Below, in pieces: positions 1-4,199 of a DNA stretch of 64,000 nucleotides (within the stretch, counting starts at the first letter, position 1; each line of letters opens with the position of its first letter). This DNA is from Escherichia coli (GTDB lineage: Bacteria > Pseudomonadota > Gammaproteobacteria > Enterobacterales > Enterobacteriaceae), in assembly GCF_003790525.1 (NCBI RefSeq), contig NZ_CP033635.1; one strand, given 5' to 3'. The translations under genes were made by a program, and so were the position numbers. Under the pieces are notes generated by a model. The model was not told the origin of the DNA and did not search any database. It was given only the letters and a program-made list of their open reading frames with translations.

Positions 1-1217
1 AAGGCGTTAATCTTCACGCCAGCAGGGGAATGAATGCTTATTCCGACGGGGAGTAGGGCGAGGAATGCCTGCGCCCACTGTGGATTTTTTTCGCGCAGGA
101 CGGCGTGATACCAGGCGCGCAGTAGCGCCTCCTGCCAGTCGGTTTTCCCGGCCCAGCGCAGCAGTTCAACGGGGGTAGCCTGCAGTTGCGTTTGCCACCA
201 GTCGAGCGGAACCGCTGCAACTATCTGATACAGCCACCATGCGCGCTGGCCCAACTTTTCGCCTTTGGGCTTAGTTTCTTCCAGCGCATCGGCCTTCCAC
301 TCTGGTAAGAACGCCTCCGGGGCATCAAGGGCGACGCGCAGCATTTTTTCTTTGCCGGATAAGCCTTTTAGCCTTTCAAGTAAGGTCTCAGGAGCGGGGG
401 ATGAACTGAGCAACGGCGCTAACCGAGACTTCATGCGCGAGATCCAGGCGCTTTCCGGCAGACAACACAGTAACCGTGCCGCAGTTTGCCGCACCTCTTT
501 GCTGCGATCGGATAATGTCTGTTCCAGAAAGGCTTCGTCGTGTTGGGAGATCCCCACTTCCAGCACAGCCAGCAGCTGTGCGCGTTCGCGGGCATCCAGC
601 GAACTCATCTCCTGCGCCAGCCGATCGCGACCCTGTTCCGGGGCGCGAATGCGCATTTGCGTCAGATATTGCAGACGCTGTTCGGACGTGCCGTGCAGCC
701 ACATTTCTTCATCCAGCGGAGCGTCAGTGGAGGCGAGAACATAGCCCCAATCGGCGTTGATTTGCGCCAGCCAGCACCCGCGAGCGCCCAGAACATTGGA
801 CAGGATGCCGCGTAGAGATGGCTTTTGCGCTCCATAATTCAGCAATGCTGGTAACAGCAGGGGCGGAGGAAGAAGTTGACGACGGACCAATAGATCAAGC
901 GCCGACCACAGCAACCGCGGCGGTCCTTCTGACAGCAGCAGATGCAGCAGTCCCGCAAAAGCCGGGTTGTTTATTGGCTCGGCATTTTCTTTATCGATTT
1001 CCGGCAGCGGTGCGGGGTCAATCGCCTGCGGCACCCAGCCAGCCAGATGGCAGAGCGCCAGAACGCCCGCCGAGCGCAGTAGCTGTTGCTCTGCGGATGT
1101 GTTATTCGCCAGTTCAGACAGTAACAGCCCAATCTCACTTTGCGACGCCGACGGTGTAAACGCTTTTTTGTCTGTGCCGAGTAGCGCTGTGCGGGTTAAA
1201 TTTTGCCATTCGTTCAT
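1..1217 (-). CDS. hypothetical protein, partial (>=405 aa, runs off window start); translationally coupled partner of the SWIM gene; not in ORF track
   Basis: Own reverse-strand translation from ATG at 1217..1215, which overlaps the SWIM stop TGA (1216..1214) as ATGA; GGAGG lies 6 nt upstream. Reads MNEWQNLTRTALLGTDKKAFTPSASQSEIGLLLSELANNTSAEQQLLRSAGVLALCHLAGW... with no stop down to position 1. Leu/Ala-rich, helical-looking. Confidence 0.6.
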   Translation of the reverse strand, partial: MNEWQNLTRTALLGTDKKAFTPSASQSEIGLLLSELANNTSAEQQLLRSAGVLALCHLAGWVPQAIDPAPLPEIDKENAEPINNPAFAGLLHLLLSEGPPRLLWSALDLLVRRQLLPPPLLLPALLNYGAQKPSLRGILSNVLGARGCWLAQINADWGYVLASTDAPLDEEMWLHGTSEQRLQYLTQMRIRAPEQGRDRLAQEMSSLDARERAQLLAVLEVGISQHDEAFLEQTLSDRSKEVRQTAARLLCCLPESAWISRMKSRLAPLLSSSPAPETLLERLKGLSGKEKMLRVALDAPEAFLPEWKADALEETKPKGEKLGQRAWWLYQIVAAVPLDWWQTQLQATPVELLRWAGKTDWQEALLRAWYHAVLREKNPQWAQAFLALLPVGISIHSPAGVKINA

Positions 1218-2536
1218 TGTGCGCCTCCGGTTGCCCAAATGACGCTACCGGCAAGCCAGGCGCTACAGGGCGTCAGCTGCTGACCATCCCATTCCCCCAT
1301 TAGCATAAACGGCGCGCCGCCGCTGGCCGCCAGTAACCGCCAACCCTCGTCCGACGACAGGTGCGTCGGTAAGTGCTGGCCCTGTGTCGAGACGAATCGC
1401 CAGCCGCTCTCGTGCGGGTAAATCAATATTTCGCTTACTCGCAGCGGCAGAGGCCATTGCCAGGGATTCGCGCTAAGCCGCTGCGCCATGTCATGCAGCG
1501 CGTCCGGGAGGGGTAATTCTGCAAGCGGGAATCTTTCACCGCGGGTAAACGGCTCCACAACCCGCGCCCGTAGCGGTGATGCGCCAGGGAAAAAGGCAAG
1601 CGCGCCCTGGCAGACTTGCCCGGTGATAAAGTGCTGGGGAAAGTTTTTACTACCGTGTGAATAGTCCAGCAGTAGCGCGGTGCGGTGGCTCTTTTCTCCG
1701 TACAGCCAGACCCGGCGTCGCCACAGATTATTCCCTTCTTGCGCGCTTTGACCTAAGACCTGCCAGTTATCGAGGCAGGTTAATCCGTCAGTGACGTCGT
1801 GTTTATCCGGGGGTATTCCCAATGCCGCATGGAGATCGCTAAGTTGTGCCGGGGATAACATTTGTTGCTGGCGCCAGGCGTCAATAATCAGCTGTAGCTG
1901 CCCCAGTTCTTTGCACAGGCTCGATGGCCATACCTCGGCGGTAGTAAAATGAGTGGTCAGATTGTTCAGGCGAGCGGCAATTCCCGGTAGTTGGGCGTCG
2001 ACCATGCGGGCGGCGATCCCGGCAAAAGGCAACTGTTGTGCAGAGATCTGCGCCAGACCGTGGCGGATCAGGTCGTGCATCCACTGTTCGAGGAAATCCA
2101 GCCCCGCCGTCATTTTTTGGTTGCGTGCCGCTTCCCGTTTGGCGGCAGCCTGCGGGTCGGCAGCTTTTGCCTCAGCCTGCTCTTTCTTCTCTTCTTTGCG
2201 AACCGCCCGCTGCTGGCGCGAGGTTAGCCACTCGCTTACCCATTCCGGCGGCTCGCCAGCGGTGAAACTTGCGGTGTGTTGCACCTGGAGAAAAAGCAAC
2301 GCAAGGCTATGTTTACAGGGGAATTTACGGCTGGGGCAGGAACATTTACAGGCCAGATCCTGTCTGTCGATTCGTACCTGATAAGGGCGGGAGCCGCTAC
2401 CTTTACACTCTCCCCAGAAGGCAGCCTCGCTATATCCGAGCGTCGGCCATTTTGCGGGAGCAACCAGGCCACGAGCCGCTTTAACCGAGGCGTCATCGGG
2501 CGCCAGGGCTTGCACTGATTCAACGGTCAGTTCCAT
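1214..2536 (-). CDS. SWIM zinc-finger domain protein, 440 aa, function unknown
   Basis: ORF-track protein carries a CxCxnCxH motif (CKCSCPSRKFPCKHSLALLF) typical of SWIM zinc fingers, followed by a charged linker (RKEEKKEQAEAKAADPQAAAKREAARNQ); no resemblance to GltF; GC-rich. Confidence 0.75.
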   Translation of the reverse strand: MELTVESVQALAPDDASVKAARGLVAPAKWPTLGYSEAAFWGECKGSGSRPYQVRIDRQDLACKCSCPSRKFPCKHSLALLFLQVQHTASFTAGEPPEWVSEWLTSRQQRAVRKEEKKEQAEAKAADPQAAAKREAARNQKMTAGLDFLEQWMHDLIRHGLAQISAQQLPFAGIAARMVDAQLPGIAARLNNLTTHFTTAEVWPSSLCKELGQLQLIIDAWRQQQMLSPAQLSDLHAALGIPPDKHDVTDGLTCLDNWQVLGQSAQEGNNLWRRRVWLYGEKSHRTALLLDYSHGSKNFPQHFITGQVCQGALAFFPGASPLRARVVEPFTRGERFPLAELPLPDALHDMAQRLSANPWQWPLPLRVSEILIYPHESGWRFVSTQGQHLPTHLSSDEGWRLLAASGGAPFMLMGEWDGQQLTPCSAWLAGSVIWATGGAQ

Positions 2537-2649
2537 TACAATTCTCTATTGGCGTGGGGAAATCGATGGGGTCAAGGAGGCGTTAAGCAAAGCAGGAGGA
2601 GACTGTTTTCCGTAACAGCGTATTGCGCGTCCATCGCAAATTTGTAGTG

Positions 2650-2679
2650 AGTATAGCGGGCGGTAAATTCAGGAAACAA
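2650..2679 (-). promoter_or_regulatory. candidate sigma70 promoter for the SWIM operon (-35 TTGTTT, 18-nt spacer, -10 TATACT on minus strand)
   Basis: Hexamers read on the reverse strand about 115 nt upstream of the SWIM start codon; motif match only. Confidence 0.3.
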
Positions 2680-2725
2680 TGGCGGATAGCGGAAAGTGTA
2701 GTTTTTCGGAAAAAGATAACTTTAT

Positions 2726-2758
2726 CCCGTGTAACCCGTTTTAAGCGGGCTACACGGG
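2726..2758 (-). terminator. hairpin immediately 3' of gltD (13-bp stem, one mismatch, 7-nt loop), followed on the transcript by a U-containing stretch
   Basis: Inverted repeat cccgtgtaacccg / cgggctacacggg 11 nt after the gltD stop; the U tract is interrupted. Confidence 0.4.
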
Positions 2759-2768
2759 AGGCTGCAAT

Positions 2769-4199
<1,431 letters not shown>

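What the first reader, a model, noticed from the sequence alone, without database searches (positions are those of the whole stretch)
1..2768. Uncharacterised SWIM zinc-finger two-gene module downstream of gltD, where gltF is expected
In the E. coli K-12 map the gene after gltD is gltF (a small periplasmic protein). Here, 233 bp after the gltD stop, a 440-aa ORF with a textbook SWIM motif (CKCSCPSRKFPCKHSLALLF) begins. Its stop overlaps the ATG of a second ORF of at least 405 aa as ATGA, so the two are translationally coupled. Neither protein resembles anything I can assign a function to. From memory, SWIM-domain proteins in bacteria often sit beside MoxR-type AAA ATPase and VWA-domain genes (the E. 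coli yehLMPQ neighbourhood is one such relative), so this may be the 5' part of a larger operon that continues beyond position 1. Only two genes are visible and one is truncated.
Basis: partly seen in the sequence, partly recalled or inferred. Interest (0 to 1): 0.8.

Follow-up and report, generated by a model that had tools for sequence, protein, structure and literature searches.

The report
Accessory five-gene SWIM/MoxR/VWA operon after gltD
Next to the glutamate synthase genes, this rare E. coli lineage has swapped a fimbrial-type gene cluster for a conserved five-gene operon of unknown function, a distant second copy of the K-12 yehLMPQ genes that probably builds an ATP-driven protein-remodelling machine.

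Summary
The window is the reverse complement of E. coli SMS-3-5. After gltD come a 440-aa SWIM zinc-finger gene and, overlapping it as ATGA, a DUF5691 gene cut off at position 1.

In the full genome these open a tightly packed five-gene operon: SWIM, DUF5691 (HEAT-like solenoid), MoxR-type AAA+ ATPase, DUF5682, and a CoxE-type VWA protein.

- **Relation to K-12:** three products are paralogues of YehL (40.6%), YehM (27.5%) and YehP (38%). The SWIM and DUF5691 proteins have no detectable counterpart there.
- **Distribution in E. coli:** the module is in 33 of 5426 complete genomes, always after gltD, replacing gltF-yhcADEF. yehLMPQ itself is in 5352.
- **Distribution elsewhere:** the same gene order recurs across at least four phyla without conserved neighbours. 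In Hymenobacter, SWIM and DUF5691 are fused.
- **Selection:** all five genes are under purifying selection.
- **Defence link:** there are no PADLOC matches, no defence-island context, and almost no presence on phages.

The most likely mechanism is a cytoplasmic MoxR/VWA remodelling machine with a SWIM-HEAT adaptor and DUF5682 as client or effector. The biological role remains unknown. I rate it a new variant of a known but uncharacterised kind, of moderate interest.

The parts
2769..4187 (-). gltD (glutamate synthase small subunit). This is the upstream neighbour, not part of the module. It marks the left edge of the replaced region.
   Evidence: Homology to K-12 (96.4%) ends exactly at its stop codon.
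2725..2759 (-). A 14-bp hairpin immediately after the gltD stop, with a T-rich stretch about 10 nt downstream. It is a likely gltBD terminator and lies on the module side of the K-12 breakpoint.
   Evidence: RNA fold gives dG -26.7 kcal/mol, z = -4.9, with 0 of 200 shuffles as stable. The simple terminator scan did not call it.
2537..2768 (-). A 232-nt intergenic region (47% GC) that must hold the operon's own promoter if it has one. No convincing sigma-70 site and no Rfam element were found.
   Evidence: It is 99.6% identical between E. coli lineages whose gltD genes differ by 4.3%.
1214..2536 (-). Gene 1: a 440-aa SWIM zinc-finger protein. It has an N-terminal SWIM domain, a long helical bundle, and two beta-rich C-terminal domains.
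2309..2344 (-). Codons for the zinc ligands, CxCx6CxH (C65, C67, C74, H76).
   Evidence: All four residues are invariant in the 35-sequence alignment A1.
1214..1217 (-). ATGA stop/start overlap between gene 1 and gene 2, consistent with translational coupling.
   Evidence: The same 4-nt overlap appears in many distant loci, e.g. L008, L010 and L015.
1..1217 (-). Gene 2, 5' part: 405 of the 534 codons of a DUF5691 protein, an all-alpha HEAT/ARM-like solenoid. The gene continues beyond window position 1.

Best explanation
Window 1-2768 holds the start of a five-gene, translationally coupled operon: SWIM protein, DUF5691, MoxR-type AAA+ ATPase, DUF5682, and a CoxE-type VWA protein. In a minority of E. 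coli lineages this operon occupies the place of the gltF-yhcADEF fimbrial-type cluster between gltD and yhcG. It is an accessory, divergent paralogue of the near-universal yehLMPQ cluster, and one copy of a self-contained cassette found in many bacterial phyla.

The most likely mechanism has three parts, each at a different level of support.

1. **Motor and adaptor (by analogy).** The AAA+ protein forms a hexameric motor. The VWA protein docks on it and uses its intact MIDAS site to grip an acidic residue of a client. ATP hydrolysis then remodels or releases that client. This is how the studied MoxR/VWA pairs NorQ/NorD, CbbQ/CbbO, RavA/ViaA and midasin work.
2. **Recognition or scaffold unit (inferred).** The SWIM protein and the HEAT-like DUF5691 protein act as one unit. 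They are always adjacent, are fused in one lineage, and evolve faster than the motor.
3. **Client or effector (conjectural).** The large DUF5682 protein is the dedicated client or effector. It carries an invariant His/Glu/Arg motif set, possibly a TIKI/TraB-like metallohydrolase site, and a hypervariable acidic loop that could be what the MIDAS site or the AAA pore engages.

The biological process served is not known. All five proteins look cytoplasmic.
For: **Operon anatomy.** The five genes and their overlaps are shown. Pfam assigns SWIM, DUF5691, AAA_5, DUF5682 and VWA_CoxE with E-values from 2.4e-6 to about 1e-267.

**Relation to known proteins.**
- The products are paralogous to YehL, YehM and YehP.
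- The AAA protein matches midasin (1e-15) and NorQ (5e-6) among solved structures.

**Catalytic motifs.**
- Walker A, sensor 1 and the Arg motif are at least 95% conserved in 75 sequences.
- The MIDAS motif DxSxS...T...D is at least 95% conserved in 64 sequences.

**Conservation of the cassette.**
- The order SWIM-DUF5691-AAA-DUF5682-VWA, all on one strand, is complete in 59 of 81 loci. Most of the others are cut by contig ends. The loci span Proteobacteria, Verrucomicrobia, Cyanobacteria and Chloroflexi.
- No flanking gene family is conserved.
- SWIM and DUF5691 are fused into one 1009-aa protein in Hymenobacter.

**Selection within E. coli.**

| Gene | dN/dS |
|---|---|
| AAA, VWA | 0.05-0.08 |
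| SWIM | about 0.2 |
| DUF5691 | 0.26 |

**DUF5682 features.**
- Invariant residues are G10-I-R-H13-H14, E37, R186-E187 and C209-G-x-x-H213.
- An acidic loop of 15-186 residues has 24% D+E, against 13% for the whole protein.

**General mechanism.** The MoxR/VWA mechanism is taken from PMC9976466. The YehL subfamily classification is from PMC3893208.
Against: - No experiment bears on this operon or on yehLMPQ in the searchable literature.
- The Walker B position reads EE rather than the canonical DE throughout the subfamily, so ATPase competence is assumed, not shown.
- The TIKI/TraB-like reading of DUF5682 has no statistical support. hhalign probability is 0.1-0.2%, and there is no Pfam, NCBIfam or PDB sequence hit.
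- No client outside the operon is identified. The roles assigned to SWIM/DUF5691 and DUF5682 rest on gene order, one fusion and evolutionary rates only.
Confidence: 0.6

Rival explanations
1. It is an anti-phage or other conflict (immune) system. The MoxR/VWA pair would act as an ATP-dependent threshold switch. On sensing an invader through the SWIM/HEAT module, it would license a toxic effector (DUF5682). This follows the MoxR-vWA ternary systems proposed by Kaur et al. 2020.
For: - The module is accessory and patchy in E. coli, at 33 of 5426 genomes, and is a self-contained cassette with variable neighbours.
- Mobile defence-type genes occasionally sit inside or beside the operon: a PIN toxin (L008), a Dcm methyltransferase plus restriction enzyme (L028), and Uma2 (L059).
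- On the Methylosinus plasmid the neighbours are VapBC, a recombinase, IS elements and Imm26.
- A YhcG-type PDDEXK nuclease lies next to the operon in three unrelated taxa.
- The putative sensor genes evolve faster than the motor.
- The K-12 paralogues yehL and yehM are H-NS-repressed (PMC3686432).
- Kaur et al. derive conflict-system MoxR-vWA pairs from CoxD/CoxE-type ancestors (PMC7159879).
Against: - None of the five proteins has a significant PADLOC v2 match. The only hit is IetA at E=1e-3, with no passing domain.
- 0 of 20 immediate neighbours in 20 diverse genomes match PADLOC. Those that can be named are housekeeping genes such as gyrB, mazG, sanA, creB and oxidoreductases.
- The system is nearly absent from phages (1 of 50,697 records) and rare on plasmids (44 of 72,556, mostly megaplasmids).
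- The paralogous yehLMPQ is core in E. coli, at 5352 of 5426 genomes, which is unusual for a defence system.
- No recognised toxin or effector domain is present.
- dN/dS is well below 1 throughout.
- SWIM and YehL are not mentioned in Kaur et al..
Confidence: 0.2
2. It is a dedicated metal-centre or cofactor insertion (maturation) chaperone for a specific enzyme. This would resemble CoxD/CoxE for CO dehydrogenase, or NorQ/NorD for nitric oxide reductase.
For: - The VWA protein matches the CoxE-type family strongly (VWA_CoxE, E=3.5e-51).
- The AAA protein matches NorQ among solved structures, and GvpN/MadB weakly in NCBIfam.
- MoxR systems characterised so far mostly mature enzyme complexes (PMC3893208, PMC9976466).
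- The neighbours are housekeeping or metabolic genes.
Against: - No client enzyme gene is conserved next to the operon in 80 loci.
- The partners that are conserved (SWIM, DUF5691, DUF5682) belong to no known cofactor pathway.
- E. coli carries a second copy with different adaptors, which is hard to explain by a single housekeeping client.
Confidence: 0.15
3. It is a remnant or cargo of a mobile DNA element, with the SWIM domain acting in DNA binding or transposition, as in MULE/FAR1 transposase-derived proteins.
For: - SWIM domains occur in MuDR-type transposases (general knowledge).
- The module replaced resident genes cleanly at gene boundaries.
- Its GC content is 55-59% against 40-47% in the adjacent non-coding and downstream DNA.
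Against: - No transposase, integrase or nuclease domain occurs in any of the five proteins.
- The locus is the same in all 33 E. coli carriers, with one copy each.
- Its dS is no higher than that of the flanking core genes, indicating long residence.
- No conserved recombinase neighbour was found.
- The closest fold match of the SWIM region is the protein-binding ZSWIM8, not a transposase.
Confidence: 0.03

Closest known systems
E. coli K-12 yehLMPQ cluster (YehL subfamily of MoxR AAA+ ATPases; Snider & Houry classification as cited in PMC3893208)
   Same: It shares three homologous components: the MoxR-type AAA_5 ATPase (40.6% identity to YehL), the DUF5682 protein (27.5% to YehM), and the CoxE-type VWA protein (38% to YehP). 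Both systems also encode a SWIM zinc-finger protein, both are cytoplasmic, and both are of unknown function.
   Different: - The gene order differs: SWIM-DUF5691-AAA-DUF5682-VWA here, against AAA-DUF5682-VWA-SWIM in yehLMPQ.
- The SWIM protein here is 440 aa with one SWIM motif. Beyond that motif it shows no detectable similarity to the 614-aa, two-motif YehQ.
- There is an extra HEAT-like DUF5691 protein with no counterpart in YehQ or YehI.
- yehLMPQ is core (5352 of 5426 genomes), while this module is rare (33 of 5426).
NorQ/NorD, CbbQ/CbbO, CoxD/CoxE and RavA/ViaA MoxR-VWA chaperone pairs
   Same: It has an AAA+ MoxR-class ATPase encoded next to a VWA protein with an intact MIDAS motif. The VWA protein is of the CoxE type. 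The expected mode of action is an ATP-driven pull on a client held through an acidic residue (PMC9976466).
   Different: Those pairs sit beside their client enzyme genes. Here no client enzyme is conserved nearby, and three additional dedicated proteins (SWIM, DUF5691, DUF5682) are always present. The Walker B position is EE rather than DE.
Midasin/Rea1 (eukaryotic AAA_5 ring plus MIDAS domain)
   Different: Midasin is a single 4,700-4,900-residue protein with six fused AAA modules that acts on pre-ribosomes. Nothing here links the bacterial operon to ribosome assembly, and the HEAT matches are generic.
MoxR-vWA ternary conflict systems (Kaur, Burroughs, Iyer, Aravind 2020; PMC7159879)
   Same: It has a CoxD/CoxE-derived MoxR-vWA pair plus further dedicated components in one operon, and a patchy, horizontally mobile distribution.
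   Different: The defining third components (VMAP, iSTAND, beta-propeller, FtsH) and the effector domains fused to the vWA protein are absent. There is only a weak partial bpMoxR match (E=9.7e-4, residues 593-641 of the concatenated query). SWIM, DUF5691 and DUF5682 are not described there.
ZSWIM8 (eukaryotic SWIM-domain substrate receptor of a cullin-RING ligase)
   Different: Identity is 10%. The operon has no cullin, RING or ubiquitin components. The C-terminal beta-rich domains have no counterpart in the match.

Membership tests
SWIM zinc finger (Pfam PF04434) | CxCxnCxH zinc-ligand signature and a significant profile match | tested here: met
   PF04434 matches residues 59-81 at E=2.4e-6. 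C65, C67, C74 and H76 are invariant in 35 homologues.
MoxR AAA+ ATPases, YehL subfamily | AAA_5 (dynein-related) module with Walker A, Walker B, sensor 1 and arginine motifs | tested here: met
   AAA_5 matches at E=7.9e-38. GVPGTAKS, ATANN and KRRF are at least 95% conserved. The Walker B position is EE, not DE, in all members including YehL.
MoxR AAA+ ATPases, YehL subfamily | Closest characterised or named relative is YehL, rather than RavA or another subfamily | tested here: inconclusive
   Identity to K-12 YehL is 40.6% over 350 residues, E=2e-77. Other solved MoxR proteins are far weaker (NorQ, E=5e-6). No phylogeny against all seven subfamilies was built.
MoxR AAA+ ATPases, YehL subfamily | Adjacent VWA-domain partner gene | tested here: met
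   A VWA_CoxE gene lies two genes downstream in the same operon and is conserved in 59 of 81 loci.
MoxR AAA+ ATPases, YehL subfamily | Hexamer formation and ATPase activity stimulated by the VWA partner | not testable with these tools
   This needs purified proteins.
yehLMPQ-type cluster (as in K-12) | Homologues of YehL, YehM (DUF5682) and YehP (VWA) | tested here: met
   Identities are 40.6%, 27.5% and 38%. DUF5682 matches Pfam at E about 1e-267.
yehLMPQ-type cluster (as in K-12) | YehQ-type SWIM protein (614 aa, two SWIM motifs) encoded last, with gene order L-M-P-Q | tested here: not met
   The SWIM gene comes first, encodes 440 aa and has one motif. BLAST and hhalign find no significant similarity to YehQ. 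An extra DUF5691 gene is present.
VWA domain with MIDAS | DxSxS ... T ... D metal-ion-dependent adhesion site | tested here: met
   The motif elements are DQSGS, GGGTD and SDL, each at least 95% conserved in 64 sequences.
CoxD/CoxE- or NorQ/NorD-type cofactor-maturation systems | Client metalloenzyme genes in the same gene neighbourhood | tested here: not met
   No flanking family is shared by more than 12 of 80 loci. That largest cluster's representative is an N-terminal response-regulator receiver-domain protein, not an enzyme. Named neighbours are unrelated housekeeping genes.
Known or candidate anti-phage defence systems (PADLOC-DB v2) | Significant match of the component proteins to a defence-system model | tested here: not met
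   Four of the five proteins have no family. The AAA protein has only IetA at E=1e-3, with no domain passing.
Known or candidate anti-phage defence systems (PADLOC-DB v2) | Residence in defence islands or on mobile elements | tested here: not met
   0 of 20 immediate neighbours in 20 genera match PADLOC. DUF5682 is found in 1 of 50,697 phage records and 44 of 72,556 plasmid records. The sample is small.
MoxR-vWA ternary conflict systems (Kaur et al. 2020) | Third component of VMAP, iSTAND, beta-propeller or FtsH type, and effector domains on the vWA protein | tested here: not met
   Pfam shows none of these. nSTAND and bpMoxR hits are weak and cover only the P-loop region. The vWA protein has no extra C-terminal domain.
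TIKI/TraB/PrgY/GumN hydrolase superfamily (for the DUF5682 N-terminal domain) | Two GxxH motifs plus a conserved Glu and Arg in the right order (recalled from Bazan et al. 2013 and Sanchez-Pulido & Ponting 2013) | tested here: inconclusive
   G10-x-x-H13, E37, R186 and G210-x-x-H213 are invariant. They align colinearly with the YbaP/TraB motifs. This is motif-level evidence only.
TIKI/TraB/PrgY/GumN hydrolase superfamily (for the DUF5682 N-terminal domain) | Statistically significant profile or fold similarity | tested here: not met
   hhalign probability is 0.1-0.2%. PF01963 does not hit any of 22 members. There are no PDB or NCBIfam hits. The fold was not tested because no prediction quota remained.
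HEAT/ARM alpha-solenoid (for DUF5691) | Stacked helical-hairpin repeat fold | tested here: met

The most novel reading that the evidence does not exclude
The SWIM-DUF5691-MoxR-DUF5682-VWA cassette, with yehLMPQ as its sister, is an undescribed class of ATP-gated machine. In it, a MoxR/VWA switch controls a TIKI/TraB-like metallohydrolase (DUF5682) that a SWIM-HEAT receptor directs to specific targets. That would make it a bacterial regulated-proteolysis or immune-type system with no characterised relative. E. coli would keep two versions with different receptors.
Probability: 0.15. Interest if true: 0.75.

Novelty: new variant of a known kind. Interest (0 to 1): 0.45.

Why it matters
yehLMPQ is one of the larger blocks of K-12 genes still without a function, and YehL is the least understood of the seven MoxR subfamilies. 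This finding shows three things:

- Some E. coli carry a second, divergent copy with a different adaptor set.
- This five-gene form is a conserved, self-contained cassette across many phyla.
- SWIM and DUF5691 act as one unit, as shown by a gene fusion.

That gives a natural comparison for experiments: two systems in one species with the same motor and different adaptors. It also narrows the hypotheses to a MoxR/VWA remodelling machine with its own client, rather than a classical enzyme-maturation factor or a catalogued defence system.

The finding also documents that the textbook gltBDF arrangement is not universal in E. coli. In these strains gltF and the yhc fimbrial genes are replaced outright.

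Tried and rejected
1. **Defence system.** PADLOC on all five proteins plus the downstream hypothetical protein gave nothing significant. PADLOC on 20 neighbours gave nothing. PHROGs gave only two function-unknown families plus generic ATPase hits.
2. **TraB/TIKI homology of DUF5682.**
   - A single-sequence and a 22-sequence profile search against PDB found nothing.
   - Pfam on 22 members found only DUF5682.
   - NCBIfam on five N-terminal domains at E up to 10 found only noise.
   - hhalign against YbaP, alone and as a family, gave probability 0.1-0.2%.
   - The last homologue search, on YbaP, returned only close relatives (at least 59% identity among those listed), so the TraB profile was shallow. 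That call was poorly spent.
3. **Homology of the non-core proteins to the yeh cluster.** I compared SWIM with YehQ, and DUF5691 with YehQ and YehI. Nothing was found.
4. **Conserved neighbours as a clue to the client.** None were found. Genes inserted inside the operon in some taxa are heterogeneous passengers.
5. **RNA elements and promoter.** Rfam found nothing. The sigma-70 scan found no site upstream of the SWIM gene on the coding strand. By eye there are only weak candidates, so none is claimed.
6. **Literature.** DUF5682, DUF5691 and DUF4132 do not occur in the library. The yeh gene names give almost only author-name noise.
7. **Transposon-like origin.** I rejected this for lack of any recombinase and because the module sits at one fixed locus.


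Full report
**What is in the window**

On the minus strand, gltD ends at window 2769. After a 232-nt spacer, a 440-aa ORF runs from 2536 to 1214. Its stop overlaps, as ATGA (1214-1217), the start of a second ORF that leaves the window at position 1 after 405 codons. The first ORF carries CKCSCPSRKFPCKH. Pfam SWIM (PF04434) matches residues 59-81 at E=2.4e-6, and the four zinc ligands are invariant in 35 homologues.

**Where it comes from and what follows**

The 2768 bases are 100% identical to E. coli SMS-3-5 (NC_010498.1), and to 22 further complete genomes listed at 100%. The window is its reverse complement (1 mismatch in 22,768 bases).

In the genome the two ORFs open a five-gene operon:

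| Gene | Length | Pfam family | E-value |
|---|---|---|---|
| SWIM | 440 aa | PF04434 | 2.4e-6 |
| DUF5691 | 534 aa | PF18944 | 7e-122 |
| AAA+ ATPase | 364 aa | AAA_5, PF07728 | 8e-38 |
| DUF5682 | 749 aa | PF18934 | about 1e-267 |
| VWA | 389 aa | VWA_CoxE, PF05762 | 3.5e-51 |

The junctions are a 4-nt overlap, a 4-nt overlap, a 17-nt gap and an 11-nt overlap.

**Relation to K-12**

The AAA, DUF5682 and VWA proteins are 40.6%, 27.5% and 38% identical to YehL, YehM and YehP. YehL names one of the seven MoxR subfamilies (PMC3893208).

The SWIM protein shares only the motif with YehQ, which is 614 aa and has two SWIM motifs. DUF5691 matches neither YehQ nor the neighbouring DUF4132 protein YehI, whether by BLAST or by profile comparison. 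The gene order also differs.

yehLMPQ itself is present in 5352 of 5426 complete E. coli genomes. The gltD-linked module is therefore a second, accessory system and not a relocated yeh cluster.

**The locus in E. coli**

- Only 33 of 5426 genomes carry the module, always once and always on the chromosome.
- Similarity to K-12 ends exactly at the gltD stop and resumes at the nanQ stop. A 126-bp remnant of yhcG lies just after the VWA gene.
- In two more divergent carriers the operon sits between gltD and an intact yhcG. So the module replaces exactly gltF-yhcA-yhcD-yhcE-yhcF. The SMS-3-5 lineage later exchanged yhcG for two small low-GC ORFs.
- Between carriers, synonymous divergence of the operon genes (dS 0.01-0.16) does not exceed that of gltBD (0.16-0.20), and it is mosaic. 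dN/dS is 0.05-0.08 for AAA and VWA, about 0.2 for SWIM and 0.26 for DUF5691.

The genes are therefore functional and long resident in the species. The putative adaptor genes evolve fastest.

**Distribution beyond E. coli**

- The SWIM protein has 4191 scored homologues and more than 870 AFDB50 structural clusters, all annotated only as SWIM proteins.
- DUF5691 occurs in Proteobacteria, Cyanobacteria, Bacteroidota and Actinobacteria.
- DUF5682 has 4447 clusters at 50% identity.
- A scan of one genome per species found 294 loci. Of 81 loci examined, 59 show the complete order SWIM-DUF5691-AAA-DUF5682-VWA on one strand. Most of the others are cut by contig ends.
- No flanking gene family is conserved. 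Named neighbours are housekeeping genes such as gyrB, mazG, sanA, creB and oxidoreductases.
- Some taxa carry unrelated passenger genes inside the operon, including a PIN toxin, a methyltransferase plus restriction enzyme, and Uma2.
- In Hymenobacter sp. HDW8 the SWIM and DUF5691 proteins are fused into one 1009-aa polypeptide. This is strong evidence that they work as one unit.
- The system is rare on plasmids (44 of 72,556 records, mostly megaplasmids) and virtually absent from phages (1 of 50,697).

**Structure and motifs**

- **DUF5691.** The model (pLDDT 90.8) is an all-alpha solenoid whose best matches are HEAT/ARM proteins.
- **AAA protein.** It matches midasin and NorQ among solved structures. 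It keeps Walker A, sensor 1 and the arginine motif, with EE at the Walker B position throughout the subfamily.
- **VWA protein.** It keeps a complete MIDAS motif.
- **DUF5682.** It has no detectable relative of known structure. It does carry invariant GxxH, E, RE and GxxH residues in its first 215 residues. It also has a hypervariable acidic loop of 15-186 residues with 24% D+E. The motif pattern recalls the TIKI/TraB/PrgY/GumN hydrolases, and it aligns colinearly with YbaP. The comparison is not statistically significant, so I keep it as a conjecture.

**How it most likely works**

By analogy with NorQ/NorD and other MoxR/VWA pairs (PMC9976466), the AAA hexamer and the VWA protein form an ATP-driven device. 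It holds a client through a MIDAS-acidic residue contact and remodels or releases it.

I infer that the SWIM-DUF5691 unit supplies recognition or scaffolding. I infer that DUF5682 is the dedicated client or effector, and its acidic loop is a plausible handle. Only the domain content, motif conservation, operon conservation, the fusion and the selection pattern are shown. The interactions and the activity are inferred.

**Rival roles**

- **Conflict or immune system (0.2).** This reading fits the patchy, cassette-like distribution and the occasional defence-type passengers. It is weakened by the lack of PADLOC matches, 0 of 20 defence-type neighbours, near-absence from phages and small plasmids, and the core status of yehLMPQ.
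- **Cofactor-maturation role (0.15).** This fits the CoxE-type VWA protein but lacks any conserved client enzyme.
- **Transposon-related origin (0.03).** No recombinase is present and the locus is fixed, so this is unlikely.

**Novelty and score**

No paper in the searchable library mentions DUF5682, DUF5691 or DUF4132. The MoxR-vWA conflict-system survey does not mention SWIM or YehL. For the K-12 paralogues I found only H-NS repression (PMC3686432).

All five proteins are already in named families and annotated in RefSeq, and the system clearly belongs to the MoxR/VWA world. I therefore call it a new variant of a known, uncharacterised kind, with interest 0.45. The finding is solid and testable, but not startling.

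Noticed in passing
L001 27678-28582 (SMS-3-5, just beyond window position 1; outside the window): After the VWA gene comes a 126-bp remnant of yhcG (78% identity to K-12). Two small minus-strand ORFs follow, of 48 and 190 aa and 40% GC. The 190-aa ORF has no Pfam, NCBIfam or PADLOC match. Other carriers keep an intact yhcG here, so this is a second, later replacement specific to the SMS-3-5 lineage.
   Followed up: partly
L086 4204-7233 (Hymenobacter sp. HDW8 plasmid): SWIM and DUF5691 are fused into a single 1009-aa protein. A small predicted membrane protein (203 aa) is inserted between the AAA and DUF5682 genes.
   Followed up: partly
L086 12489-13541; L051 7323-8477; L087 16872-17984: A YhcG-type (DUF1016) PDDEXK nuclease gene lies directly next to the operon in three unrelated taxa: Hymenobacter, Roseateles oligotrophus and E. 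coli. This could be chance, or a sign that both favour the same variable regions.
   Followed up: partly
L028 12954-14971; L008 12906-13358; L059 9249-10004: Passenger genes sit inside the operon in some genomes. Allochromatium warmingii has a cytosine methyltransferase plus a putative restriction enzyme between the AAA and DUF5682 genes. A Competibacteraceae MAG has a PIN-domain toxin. Another MAG has a Uma2-family endonuclease. Verrucomicrobia carry lineage-specific 250-310-aa proteins at the same positions.
   Followed up: partly
L001 23153-24247 (AAA gene; outside the window): The Walker B position reads A-R-x-E-E-L-T-R rather than the canonical hhhhDE. This holds in all 75 sequences examined, including K-12 YehL. 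It may be a subfamily signature with consequences for ATP hydrolysis.
   Followed up: no
L087 vs L001 (E. coli 2017-02-2CC vs SMS-3-5): Divergence within the module is mosaic. DUF5682 and the gltD-SWIM spacer are 99.4-99.6% identical while DUF5691 is 93.3% and gltD 95.7%. This suggests recombination between carrier lineages inside the operon.
   Followed up: partly
window 2725-2759 (-): A very stable 14-bp hairpin (dG -26.7 kcal/mol) lies immediately after the gltD stop, on the module side of the K-12 breakpoint. The gltBD terminator therefore appears to have arrived with the inserted DNA.
   Followed up: partly
L002 1475-8912 (K-12 yehF, yehH, yehI upstream of yehLMPQ): The core yeh cluster is preceded by a WGR-domain protein (YehF, PF05406) and by the DUF4132 proteins YehH (a pseudogene) and YehI. 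The gltD-linked module has no such neighbours. Whether these genes belong functionally to yehLMPQ is unknown.
   Followed up: no
K-12 yehP (literature): A 2009 paper on +1 ribosomal frameshift prediction (FSscan, PMC2790909) mentions yehP 36 times. I did not read it.
   Followed up: no
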